64,000 nucleotides of DNA from Octopus vulgaris (taxonomy: Eukaryota): positions 31,682,001 to 31,746,000 of the forward strand of contig OX597826.1 in assembly GCA_951406725.2 (NCBI GenBank), read 5' to 3'. A program made the position numbers and the translations under genes. Positions 5,742 to 59,177 of this stretch are shown piece by piece. Position 1 is the stretch's first letter. Each line of letters begins with the position of its first letter. The notes under the pieces are model-generated. The model searched no databases, was not told the origin of the DNA, and worked only from the letters and a program-made list of their open reading frames with translations.

Positions 5742-5774
<33 letters not shown>

Positions 5775-5992
5775 CAATATAGGGTGGCAAAAAATTTTGT
5801 AGAATTTTTTTGCCACCAGCGGCCTAGTGGGAAAAAATTAAATAGTCATAGACCATTTATAAGTTCAACATCACAATCAAGGAACGGCCATAATAGGCCA
5901 TTCACCCACTAGAAATAACAGCCAAAGCTTCAACCGCAAAATAACATTAATTCCGCAAACCAGGAGAAAATTAAAAAAACATTTACCCTGTA

Positions 5993-6099
5993 ATTTCTTA
6001 TACGATGCACCGTTTCATCTAATGTTTAATGGTAAACTAACCTGATTAAATTAAATCAAGCCAATCTTCCATAGGCCCTTAGATTCGTCAGTAAGAAAT
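5993..6099 (-). ncRNA. Type I hammerhead ribozyme
   Basis: Minus strand reads ATTTCTTA-CTGACGA-ATCTA[long hairpin]TAGAT-GAAAC-GGTGCATC-GTA^TAAGAAAT. Stems I, II and III pair and the core is canonical. Confidence 0.85.
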
Positions 6100-6828
6100 A
6101 GCCAGATCGGAACAGATATTTTCACGAGGCACTTCTGTCCCTGCCTCGGCAATATCTGACCTAAAATTTTCAAATCATCGCACTCGCGCCAAATTTATCG
6201 GCAGCAAATAAATATAAGCCGCCGATTCCATTACGGAATTAACCAGAAAATTCATAATTAATCAATATAGGGTGGCAAAAAATTTTGTAGAATTTTTTTG
6301 CCACCAGCGGCCTAGTGGGAAAAAATTAAATAGTCATAGACCATTTATAAGTTCAACATCACAATCAAGGAACGGCCATAATAGGCCATTCACCCACTAG
6401 AAATAACAGCCAAAGCTTCAACCGCAAAATAACATTAATTCCGCAAACCAGGAGAAAATTAAAAAGACATTTACCCTGTAATTGCGGAATTAATGTTATT
6501 TTGCGGTTGAAGCTTTGGCTGTTATTTCTAGTGGGTGAATGGCCTATTATGGCCGTTCCTTGATTGTGATGTTGAACTTATAAATGGTCTATGACTATTT
6601 AATTTTTTCCCACTAGGTTGCTGGTGGCAAAAAAATTCTACAAAATTTTTTGCCACCCTATATTGATTAATTATGAATTTTCTGGTTAATTCCGTAATGG
6701 AATCGGCGGCTTATATTTATTTGCTGCCGATAAATTTGGCGCGAGTGCGATGATTTGAAAATTTTAGGTCAGATATTGCCGAGGCAGGGACAGAAGTGCC
6801 TCGTGAAAATATCTGTTCCGATCTGGCT

Positions 6829-6935
6829 ATTTCTTACTGACGAATCTAAGGGCCTATGGAAGATTGGCTTGATTTAATTTAATCAGGTTAGTTTACCATT
6901 AAACAATAGATGAAACGGTGCATCGTATAAGAAAT
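6829..6935 (+). ncRNA. Type I hammerhead ribozyme
   Basis: Stem I ATTTCTTA 6829-6836 pairs TAAGAAAT 6928-6935; CTGACGA 6837-6843; stem II base ATCTA 6844-6848 pairs TAGAT 6907-6911; GAAA at 6912; stem III ACGG-TGCA-TCGT; GUA triplet 6925-6927. Confidence 0.85.
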
Positions 6936-7053
6936 TACAGGGTAAATGTTTTTTTAATTTTCTCCTGGTTTGCGGAATTAATGTTATTTTGCGGTTGAAG
7001 CTTTGGCTGTTATTTCTAGTGGGTGAATGGCCTATTATGGCCGTTCCTTGATT

Positions 7054-7105
<52 letters not shown>

Positions 7106-7108
<3 letters not shown>

Positions 7109-7496
7109 TTATATATAAAAAAGAGGTTGTGTGTCTGTCTCCTACGATTTAGATTCCTAACTACTCCCACATTTTGCGGTGCAGTATAACCAAAACCGGG
7201 TATCTTATAGTCGTGATTCATATCGAGCCCTTCTGAGTATTAACGCGCGTCTACGATGAGTCTACGATTTAAAAAAAAAATTACTATAATTTTTTCCATT
7301 TTAATGCATTTTTTCGCTATTATATAAGTAACTCTCTAAAAATGTCTACGATGAGTCAACGATTTAAAAAAATTTACCATCATTTTTTTTTCCATTTTTA
7401 ATGCATTCTTTTGCTAATTTTTGGCTATAACTCTCTGAAAATGCTTATATAGTTATTTCCCTTACAAGTCCGAGCAACGCCGGGCGATACTGCTAG
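7106..7496 (+). mobile_element. Non-autonomous Helitron
   Basis: A|TC 5' end, subterminal hairpin GTCCGAGCAACGCCGGGC (7468-7485), CTAG|T 3' end, internal direct repeat. Confidence 0.8.
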
Positions 7497-8454
7497 TATA
7501 TATATATAGTAACTACGTGTGCATGTTTATGTGTGAATATTTATCCAAAATAAGTAACTATACTTTCCAACTGCTGTACTTTACCGTACAAAATTTTCAT
7601 CAAGGCAATAGGATAGTGAATCTATATATTTTTTGCTGTACATCTCTCACAAGTACCTGTTTGTATTTAAGTGAATTAAATGACACAAATATACACGTAT
7701 TGCAGTTTACATAATAGGTATTCATAAGACTGTTGAGTAAACGTTAATTAAGAATGCATTGTCTAATAATTCTATGCATTAGCATTAATTGAAATTCATT
7801 GAAGCGGAAACGAATAAGATATTTGAATGTAAAGCTGACATATATTTATTTTGCTTTAATTCACAAACTTGAGATGTAGCGACGAAAAGACTAATCTAGG
7901 AAAATTTTTATGTTATCCTAAGATTTTCATCAAGCATGGGAGAAAACGTGTGTGATGTTTCGAGCTTATTATGACCCTTTCAGTTATGTATAGTTTTTGA
8001 TAGAGAAAAATATGTAGGTTTAATCACTTTTATACATGTATTAGCATCACAAAAGCAGTGAACCGGATTCGAAAGGGGAGCGAAAAAGGGTCTCAAACAC
8101 AGCTTCAGATGCCTTTACATTTTGCTTTATGATTTTGGTTACTTTGAGTAAAAATTAAATTTCTTGATTTTGAAATATACAATACCGGTGAAGAGATTGA
8201 AACCATTGTGATTTTACACGTTACAGAAATTCTTGAACCTGATATACACCATAGCACAACATAGCACATCAAGTCTGCAGTATATTGTATATAGGTGAAG
8301 TGGCTCATTTGTTTGGAAACAGTTTCAGATGTAACAATAATACTAAAACGCAGATCATGGTCGTCCATCTTCTGTTACTTAATTTCTATTTTATAGTAAT
8401 CACTGCATTTCACATATAACTTAAGTTTTATGATACTTATAATATTGGTAACAA

Positions 8455-9471: not shown

Positions 9472-26243
<16,772 letters not shown>

Positions 26244-27476: not shown

Positions 27477-27595
27477 ATAATAGAATGATATCACTTTGAA
27501 TGCACCGGTTCTGGTTCGATTAATGAAGTTAAGCAACACCCAGTCTAGTGAGTACTTAGACGGGTGACCGATTGGGAAATCTAGGTGCTGTAAGC
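27477..27595 (+). pseudogene. 5S rRNA pseudogene
   Basis: CACTTTGAATGCACCGGTTCTGGTTCGAT...GAAGTTAAGCA...GTACTTAGACGGGTGACCGATTGGGAAATCTAGGTGCTGTAAGC aligns by eye with eukaryotic 5S (A box, C box, 3' end) with many substitutions. Confidence 0.8.
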
Positions 27596-27789
27596 ACCTC
27601 ACACTTTCTATAGGTTCAGGCGTGACTGTGTGGTAAGGAGCTCGTGACTGTGTGGTTAGGAGTCTCACTGCGTGGCAGCTAGAGTAAGTGACTTTTACTA
27701 TAGCCTCGGGCCGACCAAAGCCTTGTGAGTGGATTTCGTAAACGAACAATGAAAGAAGACCGTGGTATGTATATATATATATAATACAC

Positions 27790-34467: not shown

Positions 34468-34926
34468 CGTGTGAAGAAGGAGAAGAAGAAGAAGAAGAAG
34501 CAGAAAAAGAAGAAGAAAAGAAGAAGAAGAAGAAGAAGGAGGAGGAGGAGAACAAGAAGAAGAAGAAAAAGAAGAAGAAGAAGAAGAAAAAGAAGAAGAA
34601 GAAGAATAATAAGAAGAAGCAGCAGCAGCAGCAGCAACAACAACAGCAAAACAAGAAAGAGGGCGAAGAAATGGAAGGAGTAGAACAGAAAAAAGAAAAA
34701 GTAAATGAAATAAAGAGAAAATATAAATATCTGAAATGTAAAATAAAAAAAGTAAAAAATAAGATTAATAGTAATTGGGAACAGTGGGGAGAAGATTTGA
34801 GTTTATCAAAAATATCCAAATGGAAGATTCAGGAATGGTCACTATTCTTGTGTTCTTCTCAAAAGTTGACCTGGGTTACGAGGTCACCTCTTCAGTTCTC
34901 ACAGGTAGGATGGTATATATACACAT

Positions 34927-34986
<60 letters not shown>

Positions 34987-35119
34987 GCACACACATATAT
35001 ATATATATATATATACATATGCACATATACAAATACACATATACATATATCACTATGCATATATAGTGATATATAAAAAAATATAGCGGCGTACGTACAC
35101 TTTGGTCTCTTATATGTAA

Positions 35120-35150
<31 letters not shown>

Positions 35151-35394
35151 ATAAAGGGTAAAATTAATTAATTAATTAGTAATTAATAATGCTTCCAAGT
35201 TGTGTTCAGCATGTTAAAAGGACCATTTTCGGTAAACTTAAACATTACTTTTTATAATTATGAGTATAATTATAATTAGGGTTCAGCAAAAAGAATTTGC
35301 TTTGCCACATACCGAACTTTTAGAAATAGCAGCCAAATAACTTAGCTGAACCCTAATTGTAATTATAATTATACTCATAATTATAAAAATTAAT

Positions 35395-35441
<47 letters not shown>

Positions 35442-35931
35442 TGTATTTGTGTATGTATGTGTATATATGGATATGTATATGTGTATGTGCATATATGCAT
35501 ATTTGTATATATGTATGTATGAGAGTGTGTATGTGTATGTATATGTGTGTGTGAATACGTGTATGTATGCATATGTGTGTGTATATGCACATATAGGTAT
35601 ATATATATATGTGTGTATGTGTATATGCGTATGTATATATACACCATCCTACCTGTGAGAACTGAAGAGGTGACCTCGTAACCCAGGTCAACTTTTGACA
35701 AGAACACAAGAATAGTGACCATTCCTGAATTTTCCATTTGGTTATTCTTGATAAACTCAAATCTTCTCCCCACTGTTCCCAATTACTATTAATCTTATTT
35801 TTTATTTTTATTTCTTATTTAATATATTTATATTTTCGCTTGATTTAATTACTTTCTTCTCTACTTTTTTCTTTTTTCTCTTCTTCTCCTTCCCCTTCTT
35901 CGCCTTCTTTCTTCCTTCATTTTGCAGCTGC

Positions 35932-35968
<37 letters not shown>

Positions 35969-36038
35969 CTTCTTCTTCTTCTTCTTCTTCTTCTTCTTCT
36001 TCTTCTATCCTTCTTCTTCTTCTTCTTCTTCACACATG
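34468..36038. repeat. Long imperfect inverted repeat just downstream of the copy B stop codon
   Basis: About 34468-35060 is the reverse complement of about 35437-36038, including the unique segment GGGAACAGTGGGGAGAAGATTTGAG...CAGGTAGGATGG. Confidence 0.85.
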
Positions 36039-46974: not shown

Positions 46975-47093
46975 ATAATAGAATGATATCACTTTGAATG
47001 CACCGGTTCTGGTTCGATTAATGAAGTTAAGCAACACCCATTCTAGTGAGTACTTAGACGGGTGACCGATTGGGAAATCTAGGTGCTGTAAGC
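46975..47093 (+). pseudogene. 5S rRNA pseudogene (duplicate of 27477-27595)
   Basis: Near-identical to the 27477 copy. Confidence 0.8.
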
Positions 47094-47715
47094 ACCTCAC
47101 ACTTTCTATAGGTTCAGGCGTGACTGTGTGGTAAGGAGCTCGTGACTGTGTGGTTAGGAGTCTCACTGCGTGGCAGCTTGAGTAAGTGACTTTTACTATA
47201 GCCTCGGGCCGACCAAAGCCTTGTGAGTGGATTTCGTAAACGAACAATGAAAGAAGACCGTGGTATGTATATATATATATATATATATAATACACATAGA
47301 GGGTGAAATATAATTAATTTAATAAAATTAATAAATTTCACCTAGTAGTTTTTTCGGTATGGAAATGACCATATTTGGTAAGGATTATATTAATTATAAT
47401 AAAGGGTTAATTGCAACAAGTTGCTCAAAACCACATACCGAAAATATTAGAAAATATTTCTAATATTTTCGGTATGCTGTTTTGAGCAACTTGTTGCAAT
47501 TATATATATATATGTATGTATGTATGTATGTGTGTGTGTGTGTACGTGTACATATATATATATATATACGGCAAATAAGAAAACGGAGAGGATATAAAAT
47601 CGACAGACATCAGCCAATAAGCATTCAAGTATGTCTATTTATTCTGTTTTCTTATTTGCCGTATAAATCATGCGTAAATCACTTTTTTACTCCCGCCCAT
47701 ATATAATACACACAT

Positions 47716-47756
<41 letters not shown>

Positions 47757-47757
<1 letters not shown>

Positions 47758-49387
47758 TCCTGAAGGAATGTAGATATCAACTTGCAGTCCCTCTGACCAA
47801 CCTCTGGAGAAACTCGTTAGACGCAGGTTATATACCGAAAAAGTTTCTATCCCAGTCGGTCATCCCGGTTTTCATTCAGGGAAGCAGATCCCTCGCAGTC
47901 AACTATCGCCCAATCTCACTCACCTCCCACATCATTAAAGTGTTTGAAAGAGTGTTAAGATCAAGGATAGCTGACTTCCTGGAGACCCACAAACTCCTAA
48001 ATTCAAATCAGCATGGCTTTCGCTGTGGCAGGGACTGTCTAACACAGCTCTTACACCACATTGAAGATGTACTCAAAGCCTTGGGAACAGGTTCGAACTC
48101 TGACGTCATATACCTTGACTTCAGTAAAGCGTTCGACAGGGTAGACCATAACATCCTACTCTCAAAATTGGCAAATGTTGGAATCCGTGGAAAAGTTCTA
48201 CACTGGATTCAGTATTTCCTAGCGAATAGAACACAACATGTTGTAGTTGATGGAATCCACTCAAACCCAGCAAAAGTCACCAGCGGTGTTCCCCAGGGAA
48301 CTGTTTTGGGTCCGCTACTCTTCATAATTTATGTAAACGACCTTTCCAGTGTCGTACATCACTGCAAAGTGAAAATATTCGCTGATGACACTAAGCTCCA
48401 GCAAATCGTCAATGAAGAAGCAGACCGAACTCAACTCCAGTCTGACCTATATGCTGTGAGTCAATGGGCAGACAGAAACAAAATGCAACTGAATGAGGGA
48501 AAATTTGAGCTGATGCATTTTGGAAGAAATTCCTCTCTAAAACAACCATACTCTCTTCCTTCAGGGGAACCGCTCACAGCCTCTAACAATATCAGAGACC
48601 TGGGTGTAATTGTTGATGACGATCTCAGTTGGAGTGCACACATCAACAAGAAGGTCGATACAGCTCGTAGGATGAGTTCCTGGATCTTAAGAACTTTCCG
48701 GTCCAGAGAACAAGGTATCATCATACCACTTTTTTCATCCTTTGTACGGCCACACCTTGAATACTGCTGCCCACTGTGGTCTCCTCACACAAGACAAAAC
48801 ATCTCCAGAATTGAGTCACCCCAGAGGGCTCTCACTAAACAAATTGAAGGCATGGCTGCTCTCGACTATTGGGATCGCCTTAAAGCCTTGAAACTTTACT
48901 CCCTCCAGCGTCGCCGTGAGCGGTACATCATTTGTACGATGTGGAAAATATACCGCCAACTTTGCCCAAACGACTTAAACATTAGCTTCAAGGTTCATCC
49001 GAGACTTGGACCACGGGCTATACGTCCCCTGCCAAATTCAAGATCACAACATACATGTACACTGCAACATAATTTCTTTTCCTCAACAGGCCCTGCCCTA
49101 TTTAACATTGTCCCGAGGGAGATCAAAGAGGAAAAGGATCCCATCAACTTCAAACAGAGTCTGGATAGATTCCTTCAAAGAATACCAGATAAGCCACCCA
49201 TAATTGGATACAACTCACCCAACAAAAACTCACTACTTGAACAAAACAGGATACAACTCACCCAACAAGAACTCACTACTTGAACAAAACTTGACTTAAA
49301 CAGGATTCGAATAATCCTATCAGGTGGTGCTATTAAGTTAGACATGGCCTGGACCAATCTCTGGTCGAAACATATCTAAGTTTTCTA

Positions 49388-54495: not shown

Positions 54496-55143
54496 TAATA
54501 TTCCTTTCTTTATTAGCCACACGAGCCGTCAAAAATCAGATTGGACGCTACAAAGCATGACGGACAAAATAGGGTTACATAAAGTGTCATGTAAAATGTG
54601 AAGAACAATAAAAAGTATAACAAAGAAAATGCCTAAAAGCGGCAAGCAACGTTCACCACATTCTCTCACCTTTTAACAAAATTGCTGGAAGTCAGCACTT
54701 CTCTCTCAACCCCCACTTTCCTAAAAGTTGATGAGGGATAGGCCAAAGAGAAAAAGTATTTCTCTTCAGTTCTTTCAGTCTAGACCACCACACAACCTCT
54801 TTCGCTACAGCCACGAGACAGATGGAAATTGTTTTCCCTTTCCGGCTTAAGGAAGGCGGAGGAGAAATCTACATAATAGAATCAGCCGACAGGCGGCCAT
54901 GTTTTACACCTGACAGCAGGTATTGTATGTTTTACTGGTTGATTAAATAGCAAAAGATTCATCCTTACACGTATATATTTACAATATATATACATACAGG
55001 AAAAGAGAATATAAAGAATATAAAAATAAAGAATAAAAATATTATATATATATATGTTAAGAATGCAAAACCATGTGTGAAGAAGAAGAAGAAGAAGAAG
55101 AAGAAGAAGAAGAAGAAGAAGAAGAAGGAGAAGAAGAAGAAGA

Positions 55144-55175
<32 letters not shown>

Positions 55176-55457
55176 CAAAACAAGAAAGAGGGCCAAGAAA
55201 TGGAAGGAGTAGAACAGAAAAAAGAAAAAGTAAATGAAATCAAGAGAAAATATAAATATCTGAAATGAAAAATAAAATAGTAAAAAATAAGATTAATAGT
55301 AATTGGGAACAGTGGGGAGAAGATTTGAGTTTATCAAGAATAGCCAAATGGAAAATTCAGGAATGGTCACTATTCTTGTGTCCTTCTCAAAAGTTGACCT
55401 GTATGGCGAGGTCACCTCTTCAGTTCTCACAGGTAGGATGGTATATATACACATACG

Positions 55458-55532
<75 letters not shown>

Positions 55533-55883
55533 GCACATATATAAATACACATATACATATATCACTATGCATATATAGTGATATATAAAAAAATATAGCG
55601 GCGTACGTACACTTTGGTCTCTTATATGTAAATATATATATATATATATATATATATTTAATCAATATAGGGTGCCAAAAAAAAATTTTGTAGAATTCTT
55701 TTGCCACCAGCGGCCTAGTGGGAAAAAATTAAATAGTCATAAACCATTTTTAAGTTCAACATCACAATCAAGGAACGGCCATAATAGGCCATTCACCCAC
55801 TAGAAATAACAGCCAAAAGCTTCAACCGCAAAATAACATTAATTCCGTAAACCAGGAGAAAATTAAAAAACATTTACCCTGTA

Positions 55884-55990
55884 ATTTCTTATACGATGCA
55901 CCGTTTCGTCTACTGTTTAATGGTAAACTAACCTGATTAAATTAAATCAAGCCAATCTACCATAGTCCCTTAGATTCATCAGTAAGAAAT
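55884..55990 (-). ncRNA. Type I hammerhead ribozyme
   Basis: ATTTCTTA-CTGATGA-ATCTA...TAGAC-GAAAC-GGTGCATC-GTA^TAAGAAAT, with an A.C mismatch at the base of stem II. Confidence 0.8.
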
Positions 55991-56853
55991 AGCCAAGTCG
56001 GAACAGATATTTTTCACGAGGCATTCCCGTCCCTGCCTCGGCAATATCTGACCTAAAATTTTCAAATCGTCGCACTCGCGCCAAATTTATCGGCAGCAAA
56101 TAAATATAAGCCGCCGATTCCATTACGGAATTAACCAGAAAATTCATAATTAATCAATATAGGGTGGCAAAAAAATTTTGTAGAATTCTTTTGCCACCAG
56201 CGGCCTAGTGGGAAAAAATTAAATAGTCATAAACCATTTTTTAAGTTCAACATCACAATCAAGGAACGGCCATAATAGGCCATTCACCCATTAGAAATAA
56301 CAGCCAAAAGCTTCAACCGCAAAATAACATTAATTCCGTAAACCAGGAGAAAATTAAAAAACATTTACCCTGTAATTTCTTATACGATGCACCGTTTCGT
56401 CTACTGTTTAATGGTAAACTAACCTGATTAAATTAAATCAAGCCAATCTACCATACAATCGTATAAGAAATTACAGGGTAAATGTTTTTTAATTTTCTCC
56501 TGGTTTACGGAATTAATGTTATTTTGCGGTTGAAGCTTTTGGCTGTTATTTCTAGTGGGTGAATGGCCTATTATGGCCGTTCCTTGATTGTGATGTTGAA
56601 TTTAAAAATGGTTTATGACTATTTAATTTTTTCCCACTAGGCCGCTGGTGGCAAAAGAATTCTACAAAATTTTTTTGCCACCCTATATTGATTAATTATG
56701 AATTTTCTGGTTAATTCCGTAATGGAATCGGCGGCTTATATTTATTTGCTGCCGATAAATTTGGCGCGAGTGCGACGATTTGAAAATTTTAGGTCAGATA
56801 TTGCCGAGGCAGGGACGGAATGCCTCGTGAAAAATATCTGTTCCGACTTGGCT

Positions 56854-56958
56854 ATTTCTTAGATGAATCTAAGGGCCTATGGTAGATTGGCTTGATTTAA
56901 TTTAATCAGGTTAGTTTACCATTAAACAGTAGACGAAACGGTGCATCGTATAAGAAAT
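56854..56958 (+). ncRNA. Hammerhead copy with a core deletion, predicted inactive
   Basis: Reads ATTTCTTA-GATGA: C3 and U4 of CUGAUGA are missing; the rest is intact. Confidence 0.7.
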
Positions 56959-57342
56959 TACAGGGTAAATGTTTCTTAATTTTCTCCTGGTTTACGGAAT
57001 TAATGTTATTTTGCGGTTGAAGCTTTTGGCTGTTATTTCTAGTGGGTGAATGGCCTATTATGGCCGTTCCTTGATTGTGATGTTGAATTTAAAAATGGTT
57101 TATGACTATTTAATTTTTTCCCACTAGGCCGCTGGTGGCAAAAGAATTCTACAAAATTTTTTTTGCCACCCTATATTGATTAATTATGAATTTTCTGGTT
57201 AATTCCGTAATGGAATCGGCGGCTTATATTTATTTGCTGCCGATAAATTTGGCGCGAGTGCGATGATTTGAAAATTTTAGGTCAGATATTGCCGAGGCAG
57301 GGACAGGAATGCCTCGTGAAAAATATCTGTTCCGACTTGGCT

Positions 57343-57449
57343 ATTTCTTACTGATGAATCTAAGGGCCTATGGTAGATTGGCTTGATTTAATTTAATCAG
57401 GTTAGTTTACCATTAAACAGTAGACGAAACGGTGCATCGTATAAGAAAT
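57343..57449 (+). ncRNA. Type I hammerhead ribozyme
   Basis: ATTTCTTA 57343-57350, CTGATGA 57351-57357, GAAAC 57426-57430, GTA 57439-57441, TAAGAAAT 57442-57449. Confidence 0.8.
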
Positions 57450-57566
57450 TACAGGGTAAATGTTTTTAATTTTCTCCTGGTTTACGGAATTAATGTTATT
57501 TTGCGGTTGAAGCTTTTGGCTGTTATTTCTAGTGGGTGAATGACCTATTATGGCCGTTCCTTGATT

Positions 57567-57612
<46 letters not shown>

Positions 57613-57616
<4 letters not shown>

Positions 57617-58305
57617 AATTAAGGACTGAACACGAAAAGTGGACAGTCAACATGCTAGATATAGACGTCAAATCGCCATTCACCACAAAAGATTATGTTC
57701 TCAGATCAAACTCAACACAAAACCATAGCAATAAACAAGTGAAAAATATACGAAATAAAATAATTACCCATGTAGGAAAACTGCAGCCATCATCAGCATG
57801 GTCCGTTATAAATGTAATTTGCTGGACTAGATGCAAACACGATACCGAAATATCGCGTGCATGGATTTCAGCCTATTACATTTGAATATATCTTTCAAAT
57901 GCCTTTACTTTGCGCGTTGAAACCCGAGAAAACTAGCCTGCTGCTAATAATTAGCAGCAGTCAATTAATCGGTTAGAGAACATATTTATTTATATAAAAT
58001 TAATTAAGGGTAGAAATTGATATTTATCAATTAAGACCAGTGGTCTAGCATATTAAAAAAGAATCCGAAGATTAAAATATTTATATATACCAATTAAGGA
58101 CTGAACACGAAAAGTGGACAGTCAACATGCTAGATATAGACGTCAAATCGCCATTCACCACAAAAGATTATGTTCTCAGATCAAACTCAACACAAAACCA
58201 TAGCAATAAACAAGTGAAAAATATACGAAATAAAATAATTACCCATGTACTAAATAACAGCTGAAACTAATTTAGTACATGGGTAATTATTTTATTTCGT
58301 ATATT
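57613..58305. mobile_element. Second tandem/fold-back family (475-nt unit) with split hammerhead halves
   Basis: TACCAATTAAGGACTGAAC at 57613 and 58088; minus-strand CCATG-CTGATGA-TGGCTG at 57801-57784; plus-strand CAGCT-GAAAC-TAATTTA-GTA-CATGG at 58258-58282. Confidence 0.7.
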
Positions 58306-59177
58306 TAATTAATTAATTAGTAATTAATAATGCTACCAAGTTGTGTTCAGCATGTTAAAAGGACCATTTTCGGTAAACTTAAACATTACTTTTTATAATT
58401 ATGAGTATAATTATAATTAGGGTTCAGCAAAAAGAATTTGCTTTGCCACATACCGAACTTTTAGAAATAGCAGCCGAAGAACTTAGCTGAACCCTAATTA
58501 TAATTATAATTATACTCATAATTATAAAAATTAATGTTTATATATATATATTTATATATGCATGTATTTTTGTATGTATGTGTATATATGGATATGTATA
58601 CGTGTATGTGCATATATGCATATTTGTATATATGTATGTATGAGAGTGTGTATATGTATGTATATGTGTGTGTGAATAAGTGTATGTATGCATATGTGTG
58701 TGTATATGCACATATAGGCATATATATGTATGTGTGTATGTGTATTTGCGTATGTATATATACACCATCCTACCTGTGAGAACTGAAGAGGTGACCTCGT
58801 AACCCAGGTCAACTTTTGACAAGAACACATGAAAAGTGACCATTCCTGAATTTTCCATTTGGTTATTCTTGATAAACTCAAATCTTCTCCCCACTGTTCC
58901 CAATTACTATTAATCTTATTTAATATATTTATATTTTCGCTTGATTTAATTACTTTCTTCATTACTTTTTTCTTTTTTCTCTTCTTCTCCTTCCCCTTCT
59001 TCGCCCTCTTTCTTCTTTCATTTTGCTGTTGTTGTTATTGTTGTTGTTGTTGTTGTTTTTGTTGTTGTTGTTGTTGTTGTTGTTCTTCTTCTTCTTCTTC
59101 TTCTTCTTCTTCTTCTTCTTCTTCTTCTTCTTCTTCTTCACACATGCTACTACTGTACATGGCTGGGTTACACTACA

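What the first reader, a model, noticed from the sequence alone, without database searches (positions are those of the whole stretch)
5771..7057. Palindromic array of a ~490-nt non-coding unit carrying a complete hammerhead ribozyme (retrozyme-like element)
Seen: a 488-nt unit with no credible ORF, repeated head-to-tail and then inverted, between (TA)n tracts. Each full unit has a canonical type I hammerhead: 8-bp stem I, CUGACGA, GAAA, a 4-bp stem III with a self-complementary UGCA loop, and a GUA triplet. There is one on each strand (5993-6099 minus, 6829-6935 plus). Established: tandem hammerhead repeats define non-LTR retrozymes, which release monomeric and circular RNAs, and Penelope-like elements carry hammerheads and often form inverted structures. 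Inference: this is a recently mobile, non-autonomous ribozyme retroelement producing ~490-nt linear or circular RNA. I do not recognise it as a described family.
Basis: partly seen in the sequence, partly recalled or inferred. Interest (0 to 1): 0.88.

Follow-up and report, generated by a model that had tools for sequence, protein, structure and literature searches.

The report
Penelope-mobilised two-armed hammerhead retrozyme
A 488-base non-coding repeat carrying a conserved hammerhead RNA motif, predicted to self-cut, sits at over a thousand TA microsatellites of an animal genome, mostly as two back-to-back arms with two fixed, different ends, which likely records how Penelope-like retrotransposons copy such parasitic RNAs into DNA.

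Summary
In detail: a 488-nt non-coding unit, tandem then inverted, between (TA)n tracts, with a type I hammerhead at 6829-6935 (+) and 5993-6099 (-). It is one insertion of a dispersed family, probably over 1,100 insertions, with a second copy at 55654-57571.

The ribozyme is under selection: the core is invariant and stems I and III show compensatory changes across subfamilies of 64-100% identity.

New here is the anatomy. Of 90 two-armed insertions examined, 83 end at site A (unit position ~89) on one arm and site B (~190-193) on the other; none was AA or BB. The ~100-nt offset resembles the Penelope-like 'tail', normally 30-40 bp. Two young intact Neptune-type elements in this genome show the same rule in (TA)n, with ~37 and ~42-nt tails. 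Arm 5' ends pile up just 3' of the predicted cut (28 of 100, 10% expected), a likely fossil of in vivo cleavage.

Not shown: cleavage, transcription, circular RNA, and which Penelope-like family is the partner (no shared sequence found). Verdict: a non-LTR retrozyme, a known kind, in a new variant that makes Penelope-type integration testable.

The parts
5743..5772 (.). Left (TA)n target tract
   Evidence: 69 of 70 A/B arm ends in sample 1 are followed by (TA)4 within 30 nt
5771..6483 (-). Left arm, about 1.5 units; 3' end at site B (unit position 188-193), 5' end at unit position 452, 5 nt past the predicted ribozyme cut
5993..6099 (-). Type I hammerhead of the left arm; predicted cut between 6001 and 6000
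6482..6483 (.). 5'-to-5' junction of the two arms, 2-nt overlap (microhomology)
   Evidence: junction overlaps of 1-5 nt in 37 of 69 two-arm loci
6482..7058 (+). Right arm, one unit (6482-6969) plus 89 nt; 3' end at site A (unit position 89)
6571..6674 (+). 'Tail' interval between site A and site B (about 100-104 nt), internal copy
   Evidence: end positions
6623..6657 (+). Conserved hairpin ending about 17 nt before site B; candidate recognition element (inferred)
   Evidence: helix 7, 97.8% of cells paired
6829..6935 (+). Type I hammerhead of the right arm; predicted cut after 6927 (unit position 446/447)
7057..7106 (.). Right (AT)n target tract
55654..57571 (.). Second insertion of the family: minus arm ending at B, plus arm ending at A, about 95% identical to the first; absent from the paralogous (TA)n at 35111-35150

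Best explanation
This is one of many dispersed insertions of a 488-nt non-coding hammerhead repeat (a non-LTR retrozyme) that is likely copied into (TA)n microsatellites by the enzyme of a Neptune-type Penelope-like retrotransposon. Shown: dispersal, (TA)n targets, two opposed arms with fixed and different 3' ends (A at ~89, B at ~190-193), variable 5' ends joined by short microhomology, the same haplotype in both arms, and selection on the ribozyme. Inferred steps: (1) tandem arrays are transcribed and the hammerhead, probably helped by dimer pairing of the palindromic stem III, cuts part of the RNA; (2) a Penelope-like protein, probably a dimer, nicks both strands of a (TA)n tract and primes reverse transcription inside the RNA, at site A on one strand and site B on the other, on one RNA or sister RNAs from one source; (3) each cDNA runs until it falls off, often at the ribozyme-cut 5' end, or runs on through up to about 10 units on an uncut multimer or a circle; (4) repair joins the two cDNA ends, giving the palindrome. 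Whether circles exist, and which family supplies the enzyme, is open.
For: End rule: 29 of 31 two-arm loci are A+B in the top-score sample; 42 of 46 in a position-ordered C1 sample where one end was preselected; 12 of 13 in a 76-86% identical subfamily picked by its ribozyme (read off the output). AA or BB: 0 of 90. A 64-70% identical subfamily shows the same two ends by eye. Two young Neptune-type families (781-aa and 846-aa frames; RT and GIY-YIG by Pfam for the first, RT for the second) end in (TA)n at two sites about 37 and 42 nt apart, one per arm in 4 of 4 two-arm loci where both ends were seen. Tail, inverted 5'-truncated copy and microsatellite bias are Penelope-like hallmarks (PMC8557442, passages). 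Two internal RT start sites define the tail, both strands are nicked and extended, and a dimer is predicted (PMC11167929, parts 1-2 of 4). 5' ends: 28 of 100 arms end in the 42 nt 3' of the cut, 10% expected, p 3.5e-7; 12 of 70 in the long-arm sample, p 0.03; local inverted microhomology is not higher there. Divergence 0.66% within an arm, 0.67% between arms, 3.8% between loci. Shared variants: 0 of 11 core and 0 of 18 stem I/III positions against 58 of 421 elsewhere, p 0.04; N7 takes all four bases and the cut base only A or C among shared types. Compensatory changes in stems I and III across subfamilies, 97.6% of cells paired.
Against: No autonomous element shares sequence with the unit: none in 50 GIY-YIG-selected loci apart from one 53-nt retrozyme fragment, none in 20 loci of the second family apart from neighbouring retrozyme insertions, and no Penelope-like ORF beside the divergent hammerhead hits. 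The ~100-nt tail is 2-3 times that of both Neptune families seen. Rfam finds no hammerhead, and the monomer MFE is not the active fold. In the preprint 8 of 9 predicted Xenopus retrozymes did not cleave in vitro. For the Anolis element cleavage was not needed for insertion in vitro, and RT start sites did not differ between strands. 57 of 82 arms read through the cut site. A hairpin at unit 456-485 could add to stalling there. The covariation rests on few independent events between related subfamilies. The samples cover 123 of probably more than 1,100 insertions.
Confidence: 0.8

Rival explanations
1. Same Penelope-type mobilisation, but the template is always a linear transcript (uncut or partly cut multimer from a tandem array) and no circular RNA takes part. 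This differs from the best reading only in excluding circles.
For: In L156 two linked variants sit in the same pass of both arms only; L038 and L049 show unit variants recurring within an array, as a multimeric template would give. Second-pass stops at the cut zone are 10 of 71, above a 7% background (p 0.03). Unprocessed RNA was the main substrate for the Anolis element.
Against: Most arrays show no variant shared by only some passes: 52 of 59 loci with 4 or more passes, including arrays of 8-12 passes, and 20 locus-private variants are in every pass, as rolling on one circle predicts. A homogeneous source array gives the same pattern. Circles were shown for coral, mussel and axolotl retrozymes (PMC7229834, passages).
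Confidence: 0.3
2. A satellite-like repeat spread at DNA level (unequal crossover, template switching, fold-back), with the palindrome made by a strand snapping back on itself.
For: Near-symmetric junctions are in some excess away from the cut zone (9 of 58, p 0.01), so fold-back may make a minority of junctions. A few arrays show mosaic unit variants.
Against: In 23 of 69 two-arm loci neither arm can be contained in the other. It does not explain two fixed ends at (TA)n, dispersal over nearly all chromosomes, the empty paralogous site or selection on the ribozyme.
Confidence: 0.04
3. A SINE-like passenger of an ordinary LINE, inverted by L1-type twin priming.
For: LINE-type RT frames occur in the window; twin priming gives two opposed arms (recalled).
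Against: No poly(A) or other 3' tail; both 3' ends lie inside a tandem unit; the second site is fixed rather than placed where the first cDNA stopped; the arms overlap in template and either may be the longer (26 A, 43 B of 69).
Confidence: 0.05
4. A non-autonomous Helitron-like DNA element moving by rolling circle, the hammerhead being incidental.
For: Tandem arrays, AT-rich targets and a hairpin near one end also mark Helitron relatives (recalled); a Helitron-like element sits directly beside it at 7107-7498.
Against: No 5' TC or 3' CTAG ends; variable 5' truncation on both arms; ribozyme conserved with covariation; 5' ends tied to the RNA cut site.
Confidence: 0.03

Closest known systems
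Metazoan non-LTR retrozymes (Cervera and de la Pena 2020, PMC7229834; passages seen)
   Same: Non-coding low-GC tandem unit with one type I hammerhead per unit, dispersed dimers to multimers, coexisting with Penelope-like elements, which the authors name as candidate mobilisers.
   Different: Unit 488 nt against 150-450 bp there. The paper's main text has no match for 'inverted' or 'microsatellite'. Here most insertions are two-armed palindromes in (TA)n with two fixed ends. Cleavage and circles were shown there and are untested here.
[quoted passage not shown]
   Same: Same conclusion about the link to Penelope-like elements; unit size within their 51-972 bp range.
   Different: Their evidence is co-occurrence and pLTR homology, mainly in vertebrates, and their discussion leans on local tandem amplification. 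They do not analyse insertion ends ('tail' 0, 'initiation' 0 matches). Here the evidence is insertion anatomy, and no pLTR homology was found.
Endonuclease-bearing Penelope-like elements, Neptune/Nematis type (Craig et al. 2021, PMC8557442, passages; Frangieh et al. 2024, PMC11167929, parts 1-2 of 4)
   Same: Partial tandems, inverted 5'-truncated copy, tail at one end only, (TA)n bias, hammerhead in the repeat, internal start of reverse transcription at two sites.
   Different: No ORF; tail about 100 nt instead of 30-40 bp; strict one-site-per-arm pairing in vivo, whereas the Anolis protein showed no strand difference in vitro; a full hammerhead with 4-bp stem III instead of the minimal form (PMC4209133, passages).

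Membership tests
Type I hammerhead ribozyme | CUGANGA, GAAA and NUH core around three helices, stem I open | tested here: met
   core invariant among shared variants
Type I hammerhead ribozyme | Helices supported by covariation | tested here: met
   stems I and III with two-sided changes, 0 of 500 shuffles as high; few independent events; stem II weaker (91% paired, no two-sided change in the 3 pairs counted)
Type I hammerhead ribozyme | Match to an Rfam hammerhead model | tested here: not met
   the ~58-nt stem II extension is a likely cause (inference)
Type I hammerhead ribozyme | Self-cleavage | not testable with these tools
   indirect only: excess of 5' ends just 3' of the predicted cut
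Non-LTR retrozyme | Tandem units of a few hundred bases, each with a type I hammerhead | tested here: met
   arrays up to 10 units; this insertion has one complete ribozyme per arm
Non-LTR retrozyme | Non-coding, GC below 45-50%, no LTR architecture | tested here: met
   GC 36%; ORFs at most 26 aa; arm maps; PBS and PPT not searched
Non-LTR retrozyme | Dispersed by transposition | tested here: met
   empty paralogous site
Non-LTR retrozyme | Expressed as linear and circular monomer RNA | tested here: inconclusive
   no RNA holder on record; only contigs of guessed-RNA runs
Penelope-like element (autonomous) | ORF with RT and GIY-YIG endonuclease | tested here: not met
   the element is non-autonomous
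Penelope-like insertion pattern | Partial tandem with an inverted 5'-truncated copy | tested here: met
Penelope-like insertion pattern | Tail extension at one end only | tested here: met
   83 of 90 two-arm insertions A+B, none AA or BB; length about 100 nt, not 30-40 bp
Penelope-like insertion pattern | Microsatellite target | tested here: met
   69 of 70 ends
pLTR-derived retrozyme (Li et al. 2026) | Sequence homology to the pLTR of an autonomous Penelope-like element | tested here: inconclusive
   none found in the loci sampled, but only 150 of 6136 GIY-YIG candidates were scored
Non-autonomous Helitron | 5' TC and 3' CTAG ends, no variable two-armed 5' truncation | tested here: not met
   end sequences

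The most novel reading that the evidence does not exclude
The family is a natural record of the Penelope-like integration reaction. An asymmetric enzyme dimer primes one target strand at site A and the other at site B of the same ribozyme-processed RNA. Self-cleavage in the germ line sets where many cDNAs stop, and long homogeneous arms come from rolling on a 488-nt circle. The lineage has persisted for a long time without a sequence-related parent, using a 100-nt structural signal to borrow Neptune enzymes.
Probability: 0.4. Interest if true: 0.8.

Novelty: new variant of a known kind. Interest (0 to 1): 0.6.

Why it matters
How Penelope-like elements make their inverted repeats and tails, what their hammerheads do, and what mobilises animal retrozymes are open questions in the papers read. 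This family offers over a thousand natural integration products of one short RNA, with an apparently strict one-end-of-each rule and a cut-site signature in the 5' ends, beside two intact young Neptune-type enzymes. That gives a defined RNA, target and candidate proteins for an in vitro test. Internal, two-strand priming on a non-coding RNA at a microsatellite may also interest those who build retroelement-based insertion tools.

Tried and rejected
Rfam, whole window and local E-value search: no hammerhead; only sub-threshold hairpin matches caused by the palindrome.

Expression: no RNA holder listed. Contigs of guessed-RNA runs cover all 29 bins of the unit and not the unique flank, but a simple repeat in the same stretch is covered relatively more than in the DNA run. 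Contigs cannot show starts, ends or circles, so this is no evidence either way. The summed DNA depth (about 1 million against 60 on unique flank) is not a copy number.

Search for a parent element: GIY-YIG family search, two families examined in full, two hammerhead pattern searches; these found older retrozyme subfamilies, not a parent. A recalled Pfam accession was not in the library.

Fold-back as the general cause of the palindrome: rejected. Both-polarity viroid-like ribozymes: rejected, the second hammerhead is the inverted arm. Circle versus multimer template: variant patterns did not decide it. Target-site duplication cannot be read inside (TA)n. The reverse-strand count of the B-end pattern (2043) is inflated by the variable gap and was not used. 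Earlier scan findings by sequence: none.

Full report
Observation. A 488-nt unit (6482-6969, GC 36%) forms a minus arm at 5771-6483 and a plus arm at 6482-7058, between (TA)n tracts. A motif scan finds type I hammerheads at 6829-6935 (+) and 5993-6099 (-), with 0 such hits in 60 shuffled windows. The unit folds far better than shuffles (z -5.3) and has no ATG frame over 26 aa. Rfam has no hammerhead match. For the isolated motif the hammerhead fold is 2.1 kcal/mol above the MFE, while stem III can pair with a second copy as a 12-bp duplex of -17.5 kcal/mol; this suggests dimer-assisted cleavage (inference; dimer logic from PMC4209133, passages). A second copy lies at 55654-57571, and the paralogous (TA)n at 35111-35150 in a duplicated block lacks it.

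Family. The genome is 2.8 Gb in 227 contigs; the host looks like an octopus from size, chromosome count and repeats (my inference, not a tool result). The unit search gave 227 matches from 40 scored of 1162 candidates, many at 97-100% identity on many chromosomes. Exact end-plus-TA patterns gave 404 matches for end A and 593 on the forward strand alone for end B, so probably more than 1,100 insertions.

Insertion anatomy. Unit positions count from window 6482. I mapped three samples. Sample 1 is 39 top-scoring loci plus the 2 window copies, biased to young and long copies: 31 two-armed, of which 29 end at A (86-94) on one arm and B (188-197) on the other, 2 have one odd end, and 10 are one-armed. 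Sample 2 is 60 stretches taken in order along C1 by an end pattern, so one end was preselected: 46 two-armed insertions (one stretch holds two), 42 A+B, 4 with an odd end, 15 with one arm mapped. Sample 3 is 22 non-overlapping loci of the 30 fetched for a 76-86% identical subfamily: 13 two-armed, 12 A+B, 9 one-armed (counted from the output). No insertion had AA or BB. A 64-70% identical subfamily with a shorter stem II shows the same two ends by eye. The 3' ends face outward into (TA)n (69 of 70). The 5' ends vary and meet in the middle, often with 1-5 nt overlap (37 of 69). Either arm can be the longer, and in 23 of 69 loci neither arm fits inside the other, which rules out simple fold-back there; a minority of near-symmetric junctions (9 of 58 outside the cut zone) may be fold-backs.

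Template. Units differ by 0.66% within an arm, 0.67% between arms and 3.8% between loci; common variants covered by both arms are carried by both in 373 of 415 cases. Both arms therefore come from one source, likely one RNA or sister RNAs. In sample 2, 28 of 100 arms have their 5' end in positions 447-488, directly 3' of the predicted cut, against 10% expected from exposure (p 3.5e-7); in sample 1, 12 of 70 (p 0.03). Inverted microhomology is not richer there than elsewhere, though a hairpin at 456-485 could contribute. Of 82 arms reaching the zone, 25 stop and 57 read through; on the second pass 2 of 25 stop in sample 2 and 8 of 46 in sample 1. I read this as a mixture of cut linear RNA and uncut or circular RNA. 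Variant patterns do not separate circle from multimer: 52 of 59 loci with 4 or more passes have no variant shared by only some passes, but L156, L038 and L049 point to multimeric templates or later rearrangement.

Selection on the ribozyme. Among variants shared by 4 or more loci, none falls in 11 core or 18 stem I/III positions against 58 of 421 elsewhere (p 0.04). Shared changes occur at the free N7 position (all four bases), at the cut base (A or C), as a compensated stem II pair and as UGCA to UAUA, which keeps the loop palindromic. In 15 aligned copies, stems I and III show two-sided changes and 97.6% of cells pair, with 0 of 500 shuffles as high; these are few independent events. Helices flanking sites A and B are also kept, mostly through one-sided changes.

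Candidate enzyme. A GIY-YIG search scored 150 of 6136 candidates. One family has many intact 781-aa frames with RT and GIY-YIG and the CX4CxxC linker described for Neptune/Nematis. A second family, 57% identical, has dozens of copies at 99-100% protein identity. Both end in (TA)n at two sites about 37 and 42 nt apart (by eye), one per arm in the 4 two-arm loci where both ends were seen. Neither shares sequence with the unit, and two hammerhead pattern searches found no parent. The partner is therefore inferred from the shared anatomy and is not identified.

Expression. No run on record as RNA holds the unit, and the contig data are uninformative.

Comparison. Tandem type I hammerhead repeats are non-LTR retrozymes (PMC7229834, passages), proposed to derive from Penelope-like elements (preprint 10.64898/2026.07.22.740005, parts 1-3 of 5; its supplements were closed and could hold families or end data I did not see). 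Tails at one end, inverted copies and microsatellite bias are known for autonomous Penelope-like elements, and tails are explained by two internal RT starts. In the searches I found no description of this family, of a ~100-nt tail, of the one-site-per-arm rule in a retrozyme, or of 5' truncation at the ribozyme cut. The library lacks most subscription papers, and Dfam and Repbase were not searched. An earlier unverified note of this scan describes a similar pattern for a tRNA-bearing repeat in another genome.

Verdict. Real, and correctly read by the first stage. It works like a non-autonomous Penelope-like element and meets the structural tests for a non-LTR retrozyme; activity, RNA forms and partner are untested. 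New variant of a known kind; confidence in the mechanism 0.8; interest 0.6.

Noticed in passing
window 7107-7498: Helitron-like non-autonomous element (starts TC, ends hairpin plus CTAG, in an AT site) in the same TA tract; 79-91% identical copies in L127, L210, L211.
   Followed up: partly
L225, L100 (repeat ends of the two Neptune-type families): Both seem to carry minimal hammerheads with a UUGANAA core, a U3-A8 swap of the usual C3-G8 pair, 50-70 nt before end A; standard motif scans would miss them (read by eye).
   Followed up: partly
L214 (G000:C5:63758500-63768000) and matches: Very young Neptune-type family with dozens of intact copies at 99-100% protein identity, a separate upstream ORF-like region and a 3' region rich in microsatellites; probably still active.
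   Followed up: partly
L234, L238-L241, L243-L246, L248, L249, L252, L254, L260, L261: A second, old hammerhead repeat family (period about 335 nt, UGCA loop, about 70% identity between units) with no similarity to the 488-nt unit.
   Followed up: no
window 27478-27596 and 46976-47092: Two degenerate 5S rRNA-like sequences above the Rfam gathering score, in duplicated blocks.
   Followed up: no
window about 9400-64000: Tandem gene duplication of about 20 kb blocks, 80-98% identical; exon translations recall SLC22-type transporters (from memory; Pfam gave no hit for the two frames tested).
   Followed up: partly
window 34549-36029 and 55072-59146: Long inverted duplications (75-78% identity) flank the TA tract that holds different inserts in the two paralogues.
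   Followed up: no
L061:4825-5370: A retrozyme arm ends at unit position 23 and runs straight into another TA-ended repeat; possible template switch between elements.
   Followed up: no
window 47667-49283 and 10551-11654: LINE-type fragments: a 538-aa RT frame and a zf-RVT frame.
   Followed up: no
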